Shown here piece after piece: positions 22,248-30,361 of a DNA stretch of 64,000 nucleotides. Numbering within the stretch: position 1 is the stretch's first letter; each line of letters opens with the position of its first letter. The stretch is taken from assembly GCA_041740355.1 (NCBI GenBank), contig JBGSMD010000051.1:64001-128000 (forward strand), in the 5' to 3' direction. Made by a program: the position numbers and the translations under genes. Below the pieces are notes generated by a model. That model was not told the origin of the DNA. It ran no database searches and saw nothing but the letters and a program-made list of their open reading frames with translations. Origin of the DNA: Bdellovibrionota bacterium. GTDB taxonomy: Bacteria; Bdellovibrionota_C; UBA2361; CALJRW01.

Positions 22248-23276
22248 CTATTGAAAATCCTTGGCGTAATTCAAAACCTCGGCAATCTCTTTAATTTGAA
22301 TACGAATTTTTCTTTTTTGTTTTGCTCTTGTTGACCTTAAAAGTTTTGATTTCAATTTACTCTTCTGTTTTTTTAGCTTAAGTAATTCTTTGGTATCCCA
22401 AGATTCCAATCCACAGGCAGTTAAAGAACTTAAACATTCATAGCGCTGACAGCCATTAGGAATACGAATAATTCTAAATTCAGCTAATGATGTAACTGCT
22501 ACCAGTACATCTTCGCCAAAGCTACAACCAGATTTAGAGGCACGGGATGTTGTACAACGTCCATTACTAGGACCATTATCACTTAATGTCTCCCCATCAA
22601 CTACTAAAGATGTTGTTGGATTTGTAAGAATTACTAACTTGCCATTACTTTCAGAAACTGGCTTCCATAAAAAATGTGTCAAATCGCTATAAGGGCTTGT
22701 TGTACAGACTCCCGGATCTTCCTCTTCTTCCTCTGGAATTAGTTCTTCTTCAATCGGATCATCCGCTCCAAGATCTGCGCCACAAATATCAAAGAGTGTC
22801 TCAATCGATTCAATAAATTCTGTAGTTAATTTGCTCGACACAATCCTTTTAATTTCCTGTGTCTCGGGACCAGAACTGAAATTAATGATTGCCTTGGCTG
22901 TTAAAGCCAAACTTACTAAATCACGAACCTTTGTTGGTCTAATCTGAGGGCAAGCTTGTTTCTTATAACCTTCGGCTATGTTTTCCGGAAGATTGCCATA
23001 ACAAAAACCAGCAATGGCCATCACGGGATTTAAACTTTCACTTGTGACGTTAGCTAGCTTGGCACTTAAGGTATTGTAAGAGACCAATAGACCTTCAATT
23101 TGAGTACGATTTTCTCTTTGATGAAGCGCTACTTGAATTGCTTCTCGATTATCAGCGATATAAAGCACATCATCGAAATTTGTCGCTGGAATATCATCGC
23201 AAAAATTATTAATATCAGCTGCAAAAGCCTGAATTGAAGTAAGGGAAATAAGAAGTAAACCTGTTAAGAATCGCAT
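22248..23276 (-). CDS. Secreted Cys-rich hypothetical protein with acidic linker and basic C-terminal tail
   Basis: Signal peptide (..QAFA), about 9 Cys, EEELIPEEEEED linker, FLWKPVSESNGKLVIL motif, Lys/Arg-rich tail. Confidence 0.7.
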   Translation of the reverse strand: MRFLTGLLLISLTSIQAFAADINNFCDDIPATNFDDVLYIADNREAIQVALHQRENRTQIEGLLVSYNTLSAKLANVTSESLNPVMAIAGFCYGNLPENIAEGYKKQACPQIRPTKVRDLVSLALTAKAIINFSSGPETQEIKRIVSSKLTTEFIESIETLFDICGADLGADDPIEEELIPEEEEEDPGVCTTSPYSDLTHFLWKPVSESNGKLVILTNPTTSLVVDGETLSDNGPSNGRCTTSRASKSGCSFGEDVLVAVTSLAEFRIIRIPNGCQRYECLSSLTACGLESWDTKELLKLKKQKSKLKSKLLRSTRAKQKRKIRIQIKEIAEVLNYAKDFQ

Positions 23277-23361
23277 AGTGGAATTAGTAGTAAAATAACC
23301 TTACATGCTAATCCACCTAAGTCGGCTGTTTGCTTCTTATTATCTGAGAATCAGAAAAGCA

Positions 23362-23985
23362 CTAAGTGTCTGATTTTACAATTAATTCCCCAGAGGAATT
23401 AAAATACTTTTGAAAGTTTGTAACTCCTTCTAGTAAATACTGTCCTTCCTTAGTTCCTACTATCCAAGCAGGTGATTTTTTAACTGAAAACTCAGAGGGT
23501 ATTTCTGCAGAGAAGAAGATAGCACCTCCCCGTCCATCAATCATCGCACTTACTTTGTTCATTTCCTTAGAACTAAAATCTTTACCAACGGCATAGACCG
23601 GTCCAAGATCATAATCATGCTCCACTGCAAATTGTAAGAAGTTTCCAATTTCAGTAAAAAAGTGCGCTTGATCATGGGCATTAATAATAATTCCCAACCA
23701 ACTTACTTTATGTTTTCCACTTGGCGGCTTGAGTTCTGTTGTATTTAGAATCGAACCTGATTTTACGACTTCTGCCGGAGAATTCTTTATTACCTCCTGC
23801 TGTTCAATAATATTACTTTTCTGATTTGTTGGGGCTACTACTTCACCATCAATCTTTTCACCCTTTCGAGGTTTAAAGACGTTCATGTCATATTCATTGC
23901 CAAAGAATCCAGTTTCCTCTGCAAGTAAATTTGCAGAAGAAAATAGTGCCAATAATAAAATGAGCTTAATAGAAAATTGTTTCAT
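23362..23985 (-). CDS. trbC: TrbC-like (F-type conjugative pilus assembly, thioredoxin-like) periplasmic protein; likely start 23985
   Basis: Signal peptide MKQFSIKLILLLALFSSANLLA; C-terminus PSEFSVKKSPAWIV....YLLEG resembles TrbC P.LF..YGI..VPAFVV....D.I.G; directly downstream of traU-like gene as in F. Confidence 0.5.
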   Translation of the reverse strand: MKQFSIKLILLLALFSSANLLAEETGFFGNEYDMNVFKPRKGEKIDGEVVAPTNQKSNIIEQQEVIKNSPAEVVKSGSILNTTELKPPSGKHKVSWLGIIINAHDQAHFFTEIGNFLQFAVEHDYDLGPVYAVGKDFSSKEMNKVSAMIDGRGGAIFFSAEIPSEFSVKKSPAWIVGTKEGQYLLEGVTNFQKYFNSSGELIVKSDT

Positions 23986-25543
23986 TCTCAATTGGTAAAT
24001 AACAAACTGGACAAGCTTGAACAAAGCGATAATGTGCTGAAACAAAACGCTCGCCATCAGCATTTACATTAGCATCCTTATACCTTTCTCCCATAATCCT
24101 TGGTAAATAGTATTGGCCATCTGTAATACAACTTTGGTTGCCATTTCGAGCAACATTGCGACTACGATTAAATGGTTGCCCACGATGAAGATCTAAGAAT
24201 TGTAGTCGGTCACGCTTATGCTCACCTTCATCTTCAAATTGTACATCATGGAATTTCCCAATTTCTTGACTCTGATTCGGATTTAACATACCAAGATTTT
24301 CTCCCATAAGATAGGCTAATTTAATGGCAACATAGTCTCTCTTAGTAGCAGCTTGAGTGGCATAAAGTGTTTCTTTATCAAAGTTAATTGGGACTGAAAA
24401 TAATCGTCCATAAAATGAAATATTTCCAGGAGCACACTTGTAGGCTCCACTAAATTTACTGTTATCATTACTCGGATCAATCAAAGTATGCAGGCTCGGT
24501 TTATTGGCTCCTTCATTTTTAAAAATAGTATCTAAGCTTCCCAGATCTTGTTTTTGCTGTCGACAATTATCCATTTTATTTTCGGCCTGCAATAGCTTTT
24601 GAAGTATGGTATTACCATAGGCTTGCTCGGCAAAACGCATTGTCATCAAGGCTTCTGGAAACTCACTAAACCAAATTGGCACCGGATTTTTAATCGGAAC
24701 CCAAGAATTCACTGCTCCCTGATGAGTCCAAATATCTTCGAAATAGTCTTCTCTATTTCTTTGATTAACATCAAAGCCTGTTGGATAGACGTGCATTTCC
24801 ATAAAACGTCCATTCTTGGAAATCGCATGACGAAGAGTAGCATCATCCATGGAAACTTTTTTACCATCTATCTCAATCTCTAATGTTTTAAATTCCTTAA
24901 TCGAATCAATCACCCCTTGATCCTTCGATATTTGCTCTTGTAAGATATTTTTAATTTCATTGATATCTTGTTGCTCAAGATGTTTAGAGCCATCGGCAAA
25001 TTTATTTTTTACTGCAGCCAATCGATCGATCTCACCTTTCGCAGGTTCAGTCGATCCACCCTGTGCTTGAACTAACATTCCTAAATGCAAAAACTGTTCT
25101 GCTTTTGCTTTTAAATTCCTCGCAATGTCTGCTGTCATAAACTCCGTATCATAGGGAGTTTGTGTTGTTTCAGTTAATTGAAAGGGAACATAATAACTAT
25201 GAAGTGGTATAGTATCTTCTAATTCGCCAGCATAGGAATTTTCAGAATAATCACGACAGAGATAAAATGAATACTCTCCAATTCCAACTTGTAAATTTCT
25301 AGCCAGTTTACATCCAGAACCTTGTACTCGCTTTCGTCCTAAACAACTATTAGGATTATCAGTATAATGATCCAACATACGATCCGCAGCTTTTGTAAAA
25401 GAATCCTCTACATCAGAATTACTAATCTCACTAATTAATCGATCCGTTGGGCTAAGTGGTGTTCCCACCTTGATCTTCAGATCTTCGGCCTGGAGTAATA
25501 AAGGAACTAATAGAATTAAACCTAAAATTTTAAAAACCTTCAT
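23966..25543 (-). CDS. traU: TraU-like periplasmic protein (F-type T4SS)
   Basis: Signal peptide; TraU-like blocks in order: SYYVPFQLTETTQTPY, RFMEMHVYP, IWFSEFP, KCAPG...YG, RLQFL, terminal HYRFVQACPVC. Confidence 0.55.
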   Translation of the reverse strand: MKVFKILGLILLVPLLLQAEDLKIKVGTPLSPTDRLISEISNSDVEDSFTKAADRMLDHYTDNPNSCLGRKRVQGSGCKLARNLQVGIGEYSFYLCRDYSENSYAGELEDTIPLHSYYVPFQLTETTQTPYDTEFMTADIARNLKAKAEQFLHLGMLVQAQGGSTEPAKGEIDRLAAVKNKFADGSKHLEQQDINEIKNILQEQISKDQGVIDSIKEFKTLEIEIDGKKVSMDDATLRHAISKNGRFMEMHVYPTGFDVNQRNREDYFEDIWTHQGAVNSWVPIKNPVPIWFSEFPEALMTMRFAEQAYGNTILQKLLQAENKMDNCRQQKQDLGSLDTIFKNEGANKPSLHTLIDPSNDNSKFSGAYKCAPGNISFYGRLFSVPINFDKETLYATQAATKRDYVAIKLAYLMGENLGMLNPNQSQEIGKFHDVQFEDEGEHKRDRLQFLDLHRGQPFNRSRNVARNGNQSCITDGQYYLPRIMGERYKDANVNADGERFVSAHYRFVQACPVCYLPIENETIFY

Positions 25544-27665
25544 CTTGTTTATCCTTTAAGACATCTGTGATCTTTCGATCATCAGATAAAATATCTAGAA
25601 TTTCATTTAGTTTTTCAGGGACTACTAAGTTCTGATTACTACTCGCACTAAATGACTGGATTAGCTTTTTAATTCGCTGTTCTTTGATTTTGGGAGTCGC
25701 CCCATCATTAATATGTTCGTAGGCCTCACGGAGAGCAGTTTTTTCATCTTGGGGGCCAAAATTTTCGGGAACCCGTAATTTAAATTCACCTTTAATCAAT
25801 TTCCATCTTTCATAAGCTGACTGATTATTCTTAAATAGTGGTGTAATAATTTTTACTAATTCTTGATTAAAAAACTTGTTAGTGCTTGGATACAATTCAA
25901 TCACACCAGTTCCGCGTAGGCCTTTTAATACTTCAGCTAATGTAATTGATTTTGCTAGTACAGCATCTACTAATAGCTGACGTAGATGACGATCGGTTTT
26001 AAATAATTTTAAATCAATTTCAAAATATCCTTTGAAAGCTAGATTAACCTGCGGTTGTAACTCTGCTACTAGCTCTTGAAACAGCTTAACTTTTACTGGC
26101 TCCTCTGTAGTTAATACCACCCGGCGCTGAAGATCAAAACTTTCTTGAGTTAGAATATTATATTTTATACTACCTAGAAGCTGATCTGTTTCCGGTGTTG
26201 GAGCAAATTCTAAATAAAGTTTAAAGGTTGGCTTTGGATTATGCTTTTCCACAAAGGCTACAGCAGCTTCAATCATGCCGGGCAATCTGGAAAACTGTTC
26301 TTCCGGCAAATCAACAGGAAAAAGAAATTTACCAATACCTTTAACATTCGATAATGAGTAAATCAGTAGTCGATCGGCTTCAATTTTCTTTAGCACATCA
26401 ACATATGTTGCTTCAACATCCTCACCTAAACTCTCCAGCTTGAGAGCAAAAGCAGCCTCAACAGTCGTGCCAGGAGCAAAAACTTTCTGTTCAGCAAAAC
26501 TATGTGAAACTTCGGCCATGGAACTAGAGAATCTTAAAAGGCGATCACCATTAATCTCTAGCGGTACATCCAAATAAGTTTGATAGGCTGGTGCTATAAA
26601 TTTACCTTCAGCTATTAGTGTTTTTTGATCTTCCAGGTTTTTATGATGAGTCTTCAGCATATCTTTTAAATCAAATTGATGACTAAAGGCTCCAGTGGAA
26701 GATTGATCTAATTGCATACCGCTAGCTGCTAGCTTATCTAAATCGATTAGCGTTCCCAATTCGCTTTGATAAAGTGCGATGGTCTCCAAATCTAACAGAA
26801 CAAGTCCATCAACTTTAAGTCCGGAAATAAACTTTGCTAGTTGCTCAGATAGCTTTAGATCGATAATTATTTGATATAAATTATCTGGTAAAGCTCGCAA
26901 AGAGCTTAGCATAATTGCTAAATTTCCATCAGCAGTAATGACTGCCGGTTTAAAATCTCTAGCATGTCTTTTAAAAAAAGTATTTAATTTCTGACTATCC
27001 TGTAGGCTAAGGTGGTAACCTGAAAAATTTAGATCGATCTTTAAAGTATCATCACTAATTAAGCTAATAAAATTTGGGGCCAATGCTAAAAGTTTAAGAT
27101 CGTTCGTTAGCTTTTCTCGAAGACCTGGAACCTTAAAATAAACTTGTCCTGCACCAGCGAATTCACTCCAAAAAAAATCTGGTAAATTTATGGTAGCAAA
27201 CTTATCAAATAAAATTTGGGCGAACTTTGGATAATATGTTTCAATCTCGTCAGCATTAAAACTTACATACCCATGACCTTGTAATCCTAGTATTGCTTCC
27301 CGTAATGAATGAATTTGAATTAATCGATTTAATATTGGTTCTGTCAGTGGCTGAAGTGCCACTACTGGGACAGCAACTTTGCGTGTTAAGGGATTAAAAT
27401 CTTTAAAAATGAATGTATCTTTAGTGGACACCTTGATTTTTTCTTTCTCTGAAGAATCTTCTTCTTTCACAGCTTGTTCAAGAGGAGCAATAGGGTCAGG
27501 TATAACCATACTTTTTGTTGTTGCCTCAGGTGCAACATCTTGCTCGCTGGTTGGGGAACTAGTGACACTTGTAGTGTTAACTTTGGAATTAGTTCCGGAC
27601 ATTACCCAGTAAACATACCCAATAATAATTACAGCTAAGAGACCTAATTTCTTTAATGATTTCAT
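25530..27665 (-). CDS. Large membrane-anchored hypothetical protein
   Basis: 711 aa, N-terminal TM followed by Thr/Ser/Pro linker; overlaps start of traU-like gene. Confidence 0.7.
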   Translation of the reverse strand: MKSLKKLGLLAVIIIGYVYWVMSGTNSKVNTTSVTSSPTSEQDVAPEATTKSMVIPDPIAPLEQAVKEEDSSEKEKIKVSTKDTFIFKDFNPLTRKVAVPVVALQPLTEPILNRLIQIHSLREAILGLQGHGYVSFNADEIETYYPKFAQILFDKFATINLPDFFWSEFAGAGQVYFKVPGLREKLTNDLKLLALAPNFISLISDDTLKIDLNFSGYHLSLQDSQKLNTFFKRHARDFKPAVITADGNLAIMLSSLRALPDNLYQIIIDLKLSEQLAKFISGLKVDGLVLLDLETIALYQSELGTLIDLDKLAASGMQLDQSSTGAFSHQFDLKDMLKTHHKNLEDQKTLIAEGKFIAPAYQTYLDVPLEINGDRLLRFSSSMAEVSHSFAEQKVFAPGTTVEAAFALKLESLGEDVEATYVDVLKKIEADRLLIYSLSNVKGIGKFLFPVDLPEEQFSRLPGMIEAAVAFVEKHNPKPTFKLYLEFAPTPETDQLLGSIKYNILTQESFDLQRRVVLTTEEPVKVKLFQELVAELQPQVNLAFKGYFEIDLKLFKTDRHLRQLLVDAVLAKSITLAEVLKGLRGTGVIELYPSTNKFFNQELVKIITPLFKNNQSAYERWKLIKGEFKLRVPENFGPQDEKTALREAYEHINDGATPKIKEQRIKKLIQSFSASSNQNLVVPEKLNEILDILSDDRKITDVLKDKQDEGF

Positions 27666-27827
27666 AGATTCAACTTAACTTAGATCCACGAGTTAAAACA
27701 GTTATAAGTTTTTATTTCAACATCAATTAAAACACTGGTTTTAATATTAAACTAACAATCCTCGATCCTGCTAACTTTCTCCTACAAATAATTTAAAGTT
27801 TAATTCCCCTATTAAACTAAATAGCGA

Positions 27828-27876
27828 TAACCCAAGAATGAATTCTGAAGTAAATCTTCGAAACATTCTTGGGTTA
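27828..27876 (-). terminator. Long hairpin/probable terminator after transglycosylase gene
   Basis: 13-bp perfect arms TAACCCAAGAATG/CATTCTTGGGTTA, 16 nt past the stop codon. Confidence 0.6.
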
Positions 27877-27892
27877 ATCATCTTTTATTCTT

Positions 27893-29311
27893 TTAGCCTC
27901 CAACTGGTGTCCATCCTCTCTGTAATGGGCCCCAATACCTAGAAGCTCCCAGTGCATTTCCACTAGCACTTGTACCAGCAATCACACCATCTTGCTTAAC
28001 TAAGCTTGAGGTAATTGAAATTGCCGCATTGGCATTGGTGTATGGATTAGAAAGCTGATCATGTGAAAAACCAGTGCTCTGTAATCCATAGTTAGTGGCA
28101 TCGGCTGTCGACAACTGAAACAAGCCTCGAGATCCCGATCCAAACTGACCTACATCTCCAACTGTGCCAGTATTGTACGAGGATTCTTTTCCAGCCAACT
28201 CTGTAAAGTATCTCGCCCAAGATTCTGAACTACCATCGATACCATATTTGGCTCCATCAGCAGGTACATATCCATTTAAATCAGAATTCTTCACTTGATT
28301 ATTCATGTAAGCAAACAAATCATCTTTGCTGACAGACCCAGAAGTAGAAACTGGCATCGATCCATCACCACCAAGATACTGGCTATAATCGGCATTCCCA
28401 ATATTTGTTCCTAATGGATTGGAGTTTGTTCCTAAAGGATTATTTCCAACAGCAGTCCATGGGTTTTGTTGATCCTGTGGAACACCACCTTGTGTTGGCA
28501 TCATCTGGTTCTGCTGATTCATGGCATTTAATGTGTTCAATACTTGCCCAGCCATAATCAGACTAGTGTTACCAGTTAGTGTGCCAACTGTAGTTAAGAT
28601 TGTTCCCAACCAACTTCCATTTTGGTTATTATTTGATCCAAAAATTCCGAAAATTCCATTACCATTACCACCTCCAATTAAGCCTGGAATACCTCCACCT
28701 GTGTTTCCGGATCCAACGTTATAACCACCGAACATTGAACCTCCGATATTACCAATGTTGCCCATGTTCCCAAAATTACCCATTCCAGGGATTGATTGAT
28801 TATATGCAGCTGGGGCTAGAAAAGTAGCAATACAATGACGGTAGTCATAGTAACAGCTTTGATCGGGATAATAATTTTGAGAATTATTTGTTAAGTAAGA
28901 CTGGACACCTGTAGAATTTAAATTCTGAAACATTGAACCAATGTTACCGGCACTACCTTGTAAATAACCAGTAAGTACGCCTAATAAAATTCCTAAGAAG
29001 GGATTATCTTGAGTGACATCACTAAGACTCACATTAGAAACTGTACGCGTCAGTCCGGCGGCAGCACCGATATTACCATCAAGATCATCTATCCTCTCGG
29101 CTTGCAGGATATCTTCGGGAGTTAAATCTAAACGATCAACATCTGTCCCTTGTTGTTGCAATGCTCGCTGACAAATCTGCTGTCCTAATGGATGGTTTGC
29201 GCAGGGATTTCCATTTTGAGCGAAGACAACTGCGGCAGGTTGTAGAAAAGTTGTTAAGAGACAAACAACAACTGTGATACTACGCGGAGATAAGATTAAT
29301 TTTCTTTTCAT
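27893..29311 (-). CDS. Secreted Gly/Asn-rich protein with C-terminal lytic transglycosylase (SLT/lysozyme-like) domain
   Basis: Catalytic ESSYN, SRGLFQLS, NPYTN, ASRYWG; signal peptide; long low-complexity G/N/Q region. Confidence 0.8.
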   Translation of the reverse strand: MKRKLILSPRSITVVVCLLTTFLQPAAVVFAQNGNPCANHPLGQQICQRALQQQGTDVDRLDLTPEDILQAERIDDLDGNIGAAAGLTRTVSNVSLSDVTQDNPFLGILLGVLTGYLQGSAGNIGSMFQNLNSTGVQSYLTNNSQNYYPDQSCYYDYRHCIATFLAPAAYNQSIPGMGNFGNMGNIGNIGGSMFGGYNVGSGNTGGGIPGLIGGGNGNGIFGIFGSNNNQNGSWLGTILTTVGTLTGNTSLIMAGQVLNTLNAMNQQNQMMPTQGGVPQDQQNPWTAVGNNPLGTNSNPLGTNIGNADYSQYLGGDGSMPVSTSGSVSKDDLFAYMNNQVKNSDLNGYVPADGAKYGIDGSSESWARYFTELAGKESSYNTGTVGDVGQFGSGSRGLFQLSTADATNYGLQSTGFSHDQLSNPYTNANAAISITSSLVKQDGVIAGTSASGNALGASRYWGPLQRGWTPVGG

Positions 29312-29396
29312 ATTAAAACCCTAACTTAAGTAAGTATAAAATAAATCACGTTAAAAATTAACGTTTTGTTTTAACTCACTCTTAATGTTGTTCTAG

Positions 29397-29506
29397 TTAT
29401 GCAAATTAGAAAAATCATCCCTACCAATTTCGGTAGGTTAAGAACCTAGTTTGCATAAGCCATTATGACAATGTTCAATTTGCTTTAGTAAATTAATTAT
29501 TGTCAT
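29397..29506. promoter_or_regulatory. Two long hairpins in the traW-like/transglycosylase intergenic region
   Basis: TTATGCAAATTAG..CCTACC/GGTAGG..CTAGTTTGCATAA (29397-29458) and ATGACAAT..ATTGTCAT (29465-29506). Confidence 0.5.
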
Positions 29507-29572
29507 TTCAATAAAACCCTTCATTAAATGTTATGGTTAGATTATCTAACTTGATACACTCGCAGTGGGTTT

Positions 29573-30361
29573 TCATTTAAAAAAGGGATGGAGGACGCCC
29601 GACGCATGGTAATCCTCATCATAGTTCTTTAATGCATTAATCCCGCGATCTATGAAAAATGCTTCAGTTGTTGTGCGAAATCTTGTAGGTAGGCATTCCA
29701 CCGCTAAACCCTTAGCAATACGATGTATTTCAGTTTTTTTGTTCGGATAGTATACTAAGAGAGTAACTTTTTCCCCCAAAAACTCATTAATATCCTGATC
29801 TTTAGGTGCTTTTTCAGGGCTTATAAACAGTAAATCTTGAACAGGTGTATTTCCTGATTGGTCATTCGTTTTGGAAATATTTTTTCTGATAGTTTTAGAT
29901 TCAGTACAATTTGGTAGAGGAATGGCTTGTTCCATCTGGATTACCTGTTTTTTCAACTGCGGCAAATATTCTTCATTGACATACTTTCGTACTGCATCTT
30001 TATCCAATTCAAATTTGCGGTAGGACTTATTAATCAACTCCGGATCTGGATAATCTACTCCAGATTTACCTTGAATATGACCAAAAATTTTCGGCTCAAC
30101 AAGCTCTTGATTCCAAGGATTTTTAGGGACTTGTCCCATCATCCGTAAAATATGTCGACTGCCTGGTTCCACTCCAAACCTAGGTGCAGATTCATTTAAC
30201 TCTGCTTCTGAAAATTTATAGGAAGTAATCTGCTTCTGTAGTGATATTTGTTGTTCGTAAGTTAAACCTTTTAAGATCTCCCGTGGATCTCCTTGAGCAA
30301 AAAGAGAATTTGCTACTATGGTTAGCAGGCAGACAAGAACAAGAATTTTAAGTTTCATCAT
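29573..30361 (-). CDS. traW: TraW-like periplasmic protein (F-type T4SS pilus assembly)
   Basis: Signal peptide; G...DYPDPELI..helical..PLPNCTESKT resembles TraW N-part; RIAKGLAVECLPTRF resembles TraW C-terminal L...FGI..VP. Confidence 0.45.
   Translation of the reverse strand: MMKLKILVLVCLLTIVANSLFAQGDPREILKGLTYEQQISLQKQITSYKFSEAELNESAPRFGVEPGSRHILRMMGQVPKNPWNQELVEPKIFGHIQGKSGVDYPDPELINKSYRKFELDKDAVRKYVNEEYLPQLKKQVIQMEQAIPLPNCTESKTIRKNISKTNDQSGNTPVQDLLFISPEKAPKDQDINEFLGEKVTLLVYYPNKKTEIHRIAKGLAVECLPTRFRTTTEAFFIDRGINALKNYDEDYHASGVLHPFFK

What the first reader, a model, noticed from the sequence alone, without database searches (positions are those of the whole stretch)
22248..30361. Orphan F-type T4SS pilus-assembly module (TraW/TraU/TrbC-like plus lytic transglycosylase) among housekeeping genes
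Seen: six co-oriented genes, all with signal peptides or N-terminal anchors, in the order traW-like, SLT, 711-aa unknown, traU-like, trbC-like, 342-aa Cys-rich. Established: F plasmids carry traW-traU-trbC-traN, and these proteins are specific to F-type systems with extensible/retractile pili. Here the W..U-C order is preserved but the proteins are highly diverged, and two extra genes lie between W and U. No TraC/VirB4, TraD, relaxase, pilin, integrase or att site is visible in 64 kb, and the flanks are glyQS-hisG-MFS and bcp-hisH-murJ. Inference: a chromosomally domesticated, dispersed F-like T4SS/pilus repurposed for host or prey contact, protein delivery or DNA uptake rather than conjugation.
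Basis: partly seen in the sequence, partly recalled or inferred. Interest (0 to 1): 0.8.

Follow-up and report, generated by a model that had tools for sequence, protein, structure and literature searches.

The report
Chromosomal F-like pilus-assembly gene trio
Three of these six genes are very distant relatives of the F-plasmid pilus-assembly proteins TraW, TraU and TrbC. They are one of three scattered pieces of a conjugation-like machine that this whole uncultured bacterial lineage carries in its chromosome.

Summary
The six co-oriented genes and their housekeeping flanks are real. Pfam and NCBIfam recognise only the SLT domain.

The 262-, 525- and 233-aa genes (W, U, C) form a conserved trio. 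It is adjacent in 11 of 13 related loci from the same order, and in sister orders it appears as U-C-W or with C and W fused.

- **U is a TraU relative.** The link runs through an intermediate family (hhalign 95% to U, 77% to TraU).
- **W and C are called TraW/TrbC equivalents on indirect evidence only:** position, the fusion, a thioredoxin-like fold and predicted binding.

The module is not orphan:
- The ancestral layout is gcvTHP, then W-U-C, then a TraF-like, an unassigned and a TraG-like gene.
- In this genome the last three stayed beside gcvP on contig C6.
- A TraK/TraB/TraV/TraC operon lies on contig C16.
- The TraC-like ATPase is single-copy in 121 of 124 genomes of the phylum.

SLT, the 711-aa gene and the 342-aa gene occur only in this genus. 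TraN homology for the 342-aa gene is not supported.

I found no publication on this. Earlier agents of this scan noted the TraC locus and the TraF/H/G cassette on other genomes. The trio, and the link between the loci, are new here.

The parts
29573..30361 (-). W: 262-aa exported protein, proposed TraW equivalent
   Evidence: - Family of at least 17 members (A7), always beside the U and C genes.
- Fused C-terminally to the C-like protein in L125 and L117, the same order as the TrbC-TraW fusions of R27, pCAR1 and pRA1.
- Its C-terminal ~40 residues are homologous to the C family (hhalign 94.3%, E 1e-7).
- AF2 pLDDT 80.2. Foldseek gives only weak thioredoxin hits (E 0.2-0.6).
- No Pfam or NCBIfam TraW hit. 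hhalign against TraW scores 15.5-16.1, which is noise.
27893..29311 (-). 472-aa exported protein with a C-terminal SLT lytic-transglycosylase domain and a long Gly/Asn-rich low-complexity middle
   Evidence: - PF01464 SLT, E 8.9e-8, residues 363-442.
- An E-S ... GLFQ motif is visible in the sequence.
- Found only in G000 and G001 among all fetched loci. It is absent from the trio of G002 and of the other families.
25530..27665 (-). 711-aa N-terminally anchored protein, Cys-free, function unknown
   Evidence: - No Pfam, NCBIfam or Atlas hit.
- No hhalign signal to any Tra family or cluster family.
- Found only in genus g1, at 57% identity in G001.
- Its stop overlaps the start of U (25530 versus 25543).
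23966..25543 (-). U: 525-aa exported Cys-containing protein, distant TraU-family member
   Evidence: - Rare family: 5 proteins among 5.8 billion and 35 among 1.84 billion representatives.
- Direct hhalign of A3 against a TraU alignment scores 26.1 (P 0.019). None of 150 column shuffles reached that score, but comparisons between non-corresponding families score up to 25-27.
- Transitive link: the sister-order family XU matches TraU at 77.3% (E 2e-5) and matches A3 at 95.3% (E 2.3e-8). One XU member carries a Pfam TraU hit of 25.3 bits.
- Pfam TraU itself gives no hit.
23362..24063 (-). C: exported Cys-free thioredoxin-like protein, about 207 aa from the likely start near 23985, proposed TrbC equivalent
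   Evidence: - Family A8 has 17 rows with a conserved SP[TA]W ... EG motif.
- AF2 pLDDT 80.5; the C-terminal domain 116-229 is above 90.
- Foldseek against PDB finds ResA, CcmG, DsbE and TlpA-type thioredoxin folds (E 5e-3 to 3e-2, probability 0.94-0.99).
- It has no Cys.
- hhalign to the TraF-like cl5 family: 44%, E 2.3e-4.
- Predicted to bind W.
- No Pfam TrbC_Ftype hit. hhalign against TrbC scores 14.7-17.3, which is noise.
22248..23276 (-). 342-aa exported protein with 10 Cys and a Lys-rich tail; function unknown, no TraN signal
   Evidence: - No Pfam hit.
- hhalign against TraN aligns only the signal peptide (residues 1-15).
- The Pfam TraN search of the genome gives no hit here.
- Found only in genus g1 (75% identity in G001).
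- Residues ~192-280 have paralogs on C12, C64 and C39 and a match in L122.

Best explanation
**What it is.** The 262-, 525- and 233-aa genes encode the periplasmic TraW-, TraU- and TrbC-type subunits of a strongly diverged F-like (MPF_F/G-like) type IV secretion machine. This uncultured Bdellovibrionota-like lineage inherits the machine vertically in its chromosome.

**Layout.** The ancestral arrangement was gcvT-gcvH-gcvP, then W-U-C, then cl5-cl8-cl4. The last three are a TraF-like thioredoxin protein, a ~530-aa protein in the TraH position, and a TraG_N-like multi-pass membrane protein. In this genus the trio moved to a new housekeeping site. There it picked up a lytic transglycosylase and two lineage-specific exported proteins. 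The cl5-cl8-cl4 genes stayed next to gcvP on contig C6. The core operon (TraK, TraB, TraV, TraC) lies on contig C16.

**How it probably works (inferred).** As in F, the thioredoxin-like W, C and cl5 proteins and the Cys-containing U protein would assemble in the periplasm. W and C would form a complex. Together with the TraG-like protein they would support growth and retraction of a pilus, or stabilise a cell-cell junction, built on the TraB/K/V/C core. The SLT enzyme would open the peptidoglycan locally.

No relaxase is linked to the system and it behaves as a single-copy core trait. It therefore most likely serves the cell, for example in contact, secretion or DNA exchange, and not a mobile element.
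For: 1. **The trio is conserved.** Both W and C lie adjacent to U in 11 of 13 U-bearing loci of the own order (L075 has C only, L046 neither). In 12 sister-order loci, 5 have separate C and W genes and 2 have them fused.
2. **U links to TraU through the XU family.** XU against TraU: 77.3%, E 2e-5, 165 columns. XU against the U profiles: 95.3%, 96.0% and 90.4%. XU against 11 other families: at most 1.6%. XU members also hit the U HMM directly, with E as low as 1.3e-9. One XU member, the G083 664-aa protein, has a Pfam TraU hit of 25.3 bits.
3. **Neighbouring genes match F-type families.** cl5 against TraF: hhalign 93.4%, E 2.5e-7. cl4 against TraG: 43.5%, E 2.4e-4. Pfam TraG_N hits 5 of the 13 cl4 members scanned, best E 1.5e-5. 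The gene order W-U-C-F-(H)-G equals that of pLPP and F.
4. **The same genome has an F-type core operon.** TraC_F_IV scores 45.9 bits, TrbI 55.7 bits, TraK_C E 3e-5 and TraV E 0.002, in F order.
5. **Inheritance is vertical.**
   - TraC-like gene: 121 of 124 genomes, 73 of 73 high-quality, 55-93% identity.
   - cl4: 112 of 124.
   - U profile A9: 87 of 124.
   - Position: the trio sits directly after gcvP in 5 loci from 3 families.
   - Close relative: G001 shares all six genes and the flanks.
6. **W, C and cl5 are related to each other.** W against C gives 94.3%, and C against cl5 gives 44%. This parallels the published statement that TraW, TraU, TraF and TrbC are all homologous (PMC4027160, passage seen).
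7. **W and C are predicted to bind.** Complex score 0.61, best of 3 controls 0.04. That mark was reached by 58 of 80 solved complexes and 2 of 110 mismatched pairs. The runs share at least 68% of contacts, and the partner pLDDT is at least 79. My own alignments were used, so the calibration counts hold only roughly.
8. **C has a Cys-free thioredoxin-like fold**.
Against: - No direct Pfam or NCBIfam hit to TraW, TraU, TrbC, TraH or TraN for the window proteins. A six-frame scan of the genome finds none for TraU, TraH and TraG_N, and none in these genes for TraN. None of 34 W/C family members hits TraW or TrbC.
- Direct hhalign for W-TraW, C-TrbC and cl8-TraH is at noise level.
- The direct U-TraU score depends on the alignment used (26.1, 22.8 or 19.7) and is no better than some comparisons between non-corresponding families (B8-TraU 25.3, BC-TraF 26.7).
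- My F-type reference alignments are small (4-11 sequences).
- TraK_C and TraV are below their Pfam cut-offs.
- No pilin was identified.
- The three loci are not shown to be co-expressed, and no function was tested.
- The genome also carries a separate P-type T4SS with TrwC relaxases and coupling proteins. The trio could in principle work with that system.
Confidence: 0.78

Rival explanations
1. A decaying remnant of an integrated conjugative element (ICE) or plasmid. The six genes are left over from an F-type transfer region whose other genes were lost.
For: - The proteins are extremely diverged.
- No TraC, coupling protein or relaxase lies on the window's contig.
- The genome does hold mobile conjugation genes elsewhere: VirB4 and TrbI on C33 and C58, and TrwC on C1 and C14, one copy with two in-frame stops.
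- An earlier scan note (e1-1115204) describes such an eroded F island in another phylum.
Against: - All six ORFs are intact and conserved with the same flanks in G001.
- The trio is kept across the order and in sister orders. The U family is in 87 of 124 genomes.
- The partner genes are near-universal and single-copy.
- The ancestral site is beside gcvTHP in several families.
- GC content equals that of the flanks.
- No integrase or repeats were looked for. That search was not done.
Confidence: 0.04
2. A periplasmic protein-folding or redox module that works independently of any T4SS. It consists of two thioredoxin-like proteins and a Cys-containing partner, shares only ancient ancestry with TraW, TraU and TrbC, and now serves another envelope structure such as type IV pili or the outer membrane.
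For: - W, C and cl5 are thioredoxin-like.
- The trio is physically separated from the TraC operon in every genome examined, including this one.
- The U-like family has many paralogs in some genomes, for example 11 matches in G083.
- One G083 copy sits next to a flagellin gene, with no T4SS genes nearby.
Against: - C has no Cys and therefore no CXXC site.
- The trio is ancestrally contiguous with TraF-like and TraG_N-like genes in F order.
- The phylum-wide co-presence of TraC, cl4 and U is most simply read as one machine.
Confidence: 0.1
3. The machine belongs to the MPF_G class (ICEHin1056/ICEclc type) or to a separate sister class, and not to MPF_F proper.
For: - PMC4027160 (passages seen) states that MPF_G also has TraW, TraU, TrbC and TraF homologs, the only known TraH homolog, and a VirB6/TraG homolog.
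- All F-specific matches here are remote.
- TraN and TraH are not detectable.
Against: - The ATPase passes the Pfam TraC_F_IV cut-off (45.9 against 28.1 bits).
- TraG_N hits are found in cl4 members.
- The gene order L/E-like, K, B, V, C and W, U, C, F, H, G follows F and pLPP.
- No MPF_G profile set was available, so this was not tested directly.
Confidence: 0.15

Closest known systems
traW-traU-trbC(-traN)-traF-(trbB)-traH-traG block of F-type (MPF_F) conjugation systems: plasmid F, Legionella pLPP, pNL1
   Same: - Same order of periplasmic and membrane components: W, U, C, thioredoxin-like F, an H-position gene, and a TraG_N-like multi-pass protein.
- U is a remote TraU homolog. cl5 matches TraF and cl4 matches TraG.
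- An F-type TraK/B/V/C operon is present in the same genome.
   Different: - Chromosomal, single-copy and vertically inherited across a phylum-level lineage.
- Split over three loci in this genome.
- No detectable TraN or TraH, and no linked relaxase.
- Sequences are too diverged for the Pfam TraU, TraW and TrbC models.
- U is 460-700 aa, against about 330 aa for TraU.
TrhW-type TrbC-TraW fusion proteins of MOBH F-like systems: R27, pCAR1, pRA1 (IncA)
   Same: In sister orders the C-like and W-like proteins are fused in the same N-to-C order. In L125, BC covers residues 6-267 and BW covers 276-421. L117 has the same order. This matches F TrbC and F TraW on the pRA1, pCAR1 and R27 fusion proteins.
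   Different: - No sequence-profile match between the two sets.
- In the window's order the genes are separate and flank U.
MPF_G systems (ICEHin1056 Tfc proteins)
   Same: According to PMC4027160, this is the only other class with TraW, TraU, TrbC, TraF and TraH homologs.
   Different: - Those systems are mobile ICEs with relaxases.
- Not compared here, because no profiles were available.
Patescibacteria T4SS (PMC12102498; only the search listing and abstract start were seen)
   Same: A lineage-wide type IV secretion system derived from a conjugation machine, in uncultured bacteria with a contact-dependent lifestyle.
   Different: That system is homologous to the conjugation machinery of monoderm bacteria and is not F-type.

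Membership tests
TraU (Pfam PF06834) | Match to the family HMM above its gathering score | tested here: not met
   - No hit for the 525-aa protein at E up to 10.
- No hit in the six-frame genome scan at E up to 10.
- None of 36 family members hits TraU at E up to 0.01.
TraU (Pfam PF06834) | Profile-profile homology to TraU alignments | tested here: met
   - The direct comparison is inconclusive. The score is 26.1 (P 0.019), and none of 150 shuffles reached it. Noise between non-corresponding families reaches 25-27.
- The link through the intermediate family XU holds. XU against TraU: 77.3%, E 2e-5. XU against A3: 95.3%, E 2.3e-8. XU against 11 other families: at most 1.6%.
TraW (NCBIfam TraW model / Pfam TraW_N; accession names recalled) | Match to the family HMM or profile | tested here: not met
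   - No hit.
- None of 34 W/C members hits it.
- hhalign scores 15.5 and 16.1.
TraW | Partnership with TrbC (fusion in some systems, physical interaction) | tested here: met
   - C-W fusions in L125 and L117, in the TrhW order.
- Complex score 0.61 against a best control of 0.04. That mark was reached by 58 of 80 solved complexes and 2 of 110 mismatched pairs.
- The F TraW-TrbC interaction itself is recalled from the literature and was not read here.
TrbC_Ftype (Pfam PF09673) | Match to the family HMM or profile | tested here: not met
   - No hit.
- hhalign scores 14.7 and 17.3.
TrbC_Ftype | Exported thioredoxin-like fold related to TraF and TraW | tested here: met
   - AF2 model plus Foldseek hits to ResA, CcmG and DsbE.
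- C against cl5: 44%. W against C: 94.3%.
- No Cys.
- The homology of TraW, TraU, TraF and TrbC is stated in PMC4027160.
MPF_F type IV secretion system | VirB4-family ATPase of the TraC_F_IV type | tested here: met
   The 912-aa protein on C16 scores 45.9 bits against PF11130 (cut-off 28.1) and also carries P-loop_TraG.
MPF_F type IV secretion system | Core TraB (VirB10-like), TraK and TraV | tested here: inconclusive
   - TrbI scores 55.7 bits, over its cut-off.
- TraK_C scores 24.5 against a cut-off of 28.5.
- TraV scores 19.5 against a cut-off of 21.
- All three lie in F order.
MPF_F type IV secretion system | F-specific TraF, TraG_N, TraH and TraN | tested here: inconclusive
   - TraF-like: hhalign 93.4%.
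- TraG_N: Pfam hit in 5 of 13 cl4 members and hhalign 43.5%, but no hit in the own genome.
- TraH: none.
- TraN: none.
Conjugative element (MPF plus relaxase plus coupling protein in one unit) | Relaxase and T4CP linked to the MPF genes | tested here: not met
   - Relaxase and TraI_2: 0 hits.
- TrwC hits only on C1 and C14, next to T4CP hits. These are other contigs than C6, C16 and C51.
SLT lytic transglycosylase (PF01464) | Match above the gathering score | tested here: met
   32.2 bits against a cut-off of 21.3, residues 363-442 of the 472-aa protein.

The most novel reading that the evidence does not exclude
A whole class-level lineage of uncultured Bdellovibrionota-like bacteria has turned an F-type conjugation machine into a core chromosomal organelle. 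The machine keeps the W/U/C/F/G set that in F is tied to pilus extension and retraction. These bacteria would use the resulting retractable pilus or junction to seize other cells and to deliver proteins or take up DNA. That would make it a conjugation-derived predation or cell-contact apparatus, and the window trio would be its periplasmic assembly module.
Probability: 0.3. Interest if true: 0.85.

Novelty: new variant of a known kind. Interest (0 to 1): 0.68.

Why it matters
F-specific proteins such as TraU, TraW and TrbC are known almost only from mobile elements, and their mechanism is still poorly understood. No solved structure was found for any of the three.

Here they appear as part of a lineage-wide, vertically inherited machine with no linked relaxase. 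A conjugation apparatus fixed as a cellular organelle in a phylum known for predation would be a clear case of exaptation.

The finding also offers practical material:
- Very diverged natural sequence families that show which residues of these proteins are indispensable.
- A predicted W-C complex and a natural C-W fusion, both of which can be tested.

It is also a warning for annotation. Profile libraries miss these genes completely, so MPF_F systems scored as 'incomplete' in such genomes may be complete but dispersed.

Tried and rejected
**Searches that found nothing useful**
- ESM Atlas look-ups for the 525-aa and 711-aa proteins gave no usable hit.
- tblastn of the G083 TraU-like protein against plasmids gave no match.
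- tblastn of F TraU against plasmids and the 5.8-billion-protein search with F TraU returned only IncF-like sequences of 68-100% identity. They were of little use for a diverse profile. I then took TraU, TraW, TrbC, TraN, TraF, TraH and TraG from five named MPF_F plasmids.
- The search for related loci with A3 failed because no stretch was conserved enough. With A1 it found only G001 and G002.
- The listing of cluster members gave no names.

**Comparisons that gave no signal**
- hhalign with single sequences had no power.
- An HMM of the U family against the G083 TraU-like protein was not significant.
- W against TraW, C against TrbC, cl8 against TraH, the 342-aa protein against TraN, and the 711-aa protein against all families all stayed at noise level.

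**Ideas rejected**
- The 342-aa Cys-rich protein as TraN.
- SLT and the 711-aa gene as conserved parts of the module. Both are genus-specific.

**Rows dropped**
- P0025 (spurious, rubrerythrin) and P0037 (fragment) were dropped from fam33.
- A3 kept 22 of the 36 rows of A2.
- L126 was dropped from A9 after a coordinate error.

**Not done**
- Search for integrases or att sites.
- Search for a pilin.
- dN/dS analysis and gene trees.
- The metagenome-contig scan was not used.
- Supplementary tables of PMC4027160 (profile lists) could not be consulted.

Full report
**Observation.** The window (G000, contig C51, 64001-128000) holds six minus-strand ORFs of 262, 472, 711, 525, 233 and 342 aa at 22248-30361.
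- GC content is the same as in the flanks.
- The flanks are housekeeping genes. One side has a class-II aaRS, HisG and an MFS transporter. The other side has AhpC/TSA, a GATase, MurJ and ProC.
- Pfam and NCBIfam recognise only an SLT domain in the 472-aa protein (E 8.9e-8). The other five proteins match nothing, even at E up to 10.
- The Pfam TraU model finds nothing in the whole genome.

**A conserved trio.**
- *Rarity.* The 525-aa protein (U) is rare. Five proteins match it among 5.8 billion. With a profile, 35 match among 1.84 billion representatives. None of 36 members carries a Pfam TraU hit.
- *Same-genus genome.* G001 has all six genes with the same flanks. Identities are 57-75% for the cluster against 77-94% for the flanks.
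- *Other genomes.* G002 and other families of the order lack the SLT, 711-aa and 342-aa genes. They keep the 262-aa (W), 525-aa (U) and 233-aa (C) genes side by side.
- *Adjacency count.* Both W and C are adjacent to U in 11 of the 13 U-bearing loci of the order that I fetched. L075 has C only and L046 has neither.
- *Position.* In five loci from three families the trio directly follows gcvT-gcvH-gcvP. In L045, L047, L050 and L051 it is followed by three more conserved genes: cl5 (~350-500 aa), cl8 (~530-600 aa) and cl4 (~1000-1150 aa, multi-pass membrane).

**The rest of the machine in this genome.**
- The cl5, cl8 and cl4 genes are on contig C6, still next to gcvH-gcvP and separated from them by a PIN/RHH pair. 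In this genus cl8 is two ORFs.
- Contig C16 carries an operon in F order. It reads: two small ORFs, a 222-aa ORF, TraK_C (E 3e-5), TrbI/TraB (E 7e-15), TraV (E 0.002), a 156-aa ORF, and a 912-aa TraC_F_IV ATPase (E 5e-12).
- The window trio is therefore one of three dispersed parts and is not an orphan.
- The genome also holds separate mobile-type conjugation genes. A VirB4 and TrbI genes lie on C33 and C58. TrwC relaxases lie with coupling proteins on C1 and C14.

**Homology tests.** I built reference alignments of TraW, TraU, TrbC, TraN, TraF, TraH and TraG from F and five named MPF_F plasmids.

The all-against-all hhalign matrix gave these results:

| Comparison | Result |
|---|---|
| cl5 vs TraF | 93.4%, E 2.5e-7 |
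| cl4 vs TraG | 43.5%, E 2.4e-4 |
| W vs TraW | 15.5 (noise) |
| C vs TrbC | 14.7 (noise) |
| cl8 vs TraH | 17.2 (noise) |
| Highest score between non-corresponding families | 25-27 |

- *Pfam on the C6-type families.* I scanned 43 members of cl5, cl8 and cl4. TraG_N hit 5 of the 13 cl4 members (best E 1.5e-5). Thioredoxin models hit 9-10 of the 15 cl5 members.
- *U against TraU, directly.* The score was 26.1 with two collinear segments. None of 150 column shuffles reached it. The score is not above the noise seen between non-corresponding families, and it drops with other alignments.
- *U against TraU, through an intermediate family (XU).*
  - In sister orders a 600-700-aa family is found in 21 of 124 genomes, none of them in the window's order. 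One member has a Pfam TraU hit of 25.3 bits.
  - XU matches TraU at 77.3% (E 2e-5) and the U profiles at 90-96% (E down to 4e-9), over consistent regions. It matches none of 11 control families above 1.6%.
  - XU members also hit the U HMM directly.

**W and C.**
- *Neighbours of XU.* In sister orders XU is followed by C-like and W-like genes as separate genes in 5 of 12 loci. In 2 of 12 it is followed by a single C-W fusion with C at the N-terminus. That is the domain order of the TrbC-TraW fusion proteins of R27, pCAR1 and pRA1.
- *Relations among the families.* W and C share a homologous C-terminal segment (94.3%, E 1e-7). C matches cl5 at 44%. F TraW and F TrbC weakly match each other at the same place (E 0.0019). 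This fits the published statement that TraW, TraU, TraF and TrbC are all homologous (PMC4027160, passage seen).
- *Predicted structures.* The AF2 model of C has a confident domain (pLDDT above 90) that Foldseek places with ResA, CcmG and DsbE thioredoxin folds. C has no cysteine. W gives only weak thioredoxin matches.
- *Predicted binding.*
  - The complex prediction for W(85-262) with C(110-233) scored 0.61, and the best of 3 controls scored 0.04. That mark was reached by 58 of 80 solved complexes and 2 of 110 mismatched pairs.
  - The runs share at least 68% of contacts, and the partner pLDDT is at least 79. My own alignments were used, so the calibration counts hold only roughly.
- *No direct match.* No profile links W to TraW or C to TrbC. 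These two names are inferences from context.

**Distribution.**

| Component | Genomes of the phylum sample | High-quality genomes |
|---|---|---|
| TraC-like ATPase | 121 of 124 (single copy, 55-93% identity) | 73 of 73 |
| cl4 | 112 of 124 | 71 of 73 |
| U family (combined profile A9) | 87 of 124 | 56 of 73 |

The narrower U profile A3 found only 19 genomes. Together with the conserved gcvTHP neighbourhood, this shows vertical inheritance and argues against an ICE remnant.

**Genus-specific extras.** SLT, the 711-aa protein and the 342-aa protein occur only in G000 and G001.
- The 342-aa protein aligns to TraN only over its signal peptide.
- The 711-aa protein matches nothing.
- A lytic transglycosylase beside T4SS genes is usual in conjugation systems. 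This point is recalled and was not tested here.

**Mechanism.** All of this is inferred.
- The trio would be the periplasmic assembly subcomplex of the lineage's F-like machine. W and C would be bound to each other.
- The trio would work with the TraF-like and TraG-like proteins on a TraB/K/V/C core.
- According to PMC4027160, inactivating TraW, TraU, TraF or TrbC in F gives shortened pili.
- The cargo, and whether a pilus is made at all, are unknown.

**Literature.** Five searches found no description of such a system. I also ran term look-ups in three papers:
- a 2025 T4SS nomenclature review (PMC12857230), where 'Bdellovibrio' occurs 0 times;
- a Bdellovibrionota comparative-genomics paper (PMC11656739), with 0 occurrences of 'conjug', 'T4SS', 'TraG' or 'F-type';
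- a predation review (PMC12428579).

Only the matched passages of these papers were read.

**Earlier notes of this scan.** After I had found the C16 and C6 loci myself, a look-up showed that other agents had reported parts of this system on other genomes. They had noted the TraC core locus (e1-975649, e1-3347700, e1-1533036, e1-942039, e1-4527487) and a TraF/H/G cassette (e1-1448313). None had reported the W-U-C trio.

**Caveats.**
- The reference alignments are small.
- The W and C assignments are indirect.
- cl8 as a TraH equivalent rests on gene position alone.
- The taxon label 'Bdellovibrionota-like' comes from earlier notes and from source names of homologs. I did not run a classification.

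Noticed in passing
G000 contig C6 (L052 9502-10155 and 10162-11106); G001 (L082 10829-12441): The cl8 gene (TraH position) is one ORF of 520-600 aa in other genera. In G000 and G001 it is two ORFs of about 217 and 314 aa. In G000 they are separated by a TAA with an ATG two codons later. In G001 the second ORF is in another frame.
   Followed up: partly
G000 contig C6 (L052 7115-7863): A PIN-domain and ribbon-helix-helix (toxin-antitoxin-like) gene pair sits between gcvP and the TraF-like gene. This is where the W-U-C trio lies in other genera.
   Followed up: no
G000 contigs C33, C58, C1, C14, C39: A separate P-type T4SS is present: VirB4 at C33:620, and TrbI at C33:9391 and C58:1221. Two TrwC relaxases sit next to coupling proteins at C1:4122 and C14:9857, and the C14 copy has two in-frame TAA stops. 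A further T4CP lies at C39:67354. These are probably one or two conjugative elements unrelated to the F-like system.
   Followed up: no
L012 14742-16679 (G083): A 645-aa flagellin has seven FG-GAP repeats inserted between its N- and C-terminal helical domains. It lies next to a paralogous TraU-like gene. G083 has 11 matches to the U profile.
   Followed up: no
Sister-order genomes: A ~100-residue segment of the TraG-like cl4 protein (profile positions ~447-580) matches five or more different 600-1100-aa proteins per genome in the other orders of the class. This points to a large paralogous family of TraG_N-like membrane proteins.
   Followed up: no
window 22248-23276 (residues ~192-280 of the 342-aa protein); G000 C12:15787-16050, C64:42262-42552, C39:104881-104958: A ~90-residue domain of the Cys-rich protein has paralogs elsewhere in the genome and a 56%-identical match in a sister-order locus (L122 4289-4486).
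   Followed up: no
G048: This genome has three full-length cl4 copies and four to five U-family matches on different contigs, so the module may be duplicated. Assembly redundancy was not excluded.
   Followed up: no
L075 12869-14899 (G028) and other genus g10 genomes: In the largest genus (g10) the U protein is 660-760 aa, and only its middle part matches the profile. No separate W gene was seen upstream in L075, so W may be fused to U there or lie elsewhere.
   Followed up: no
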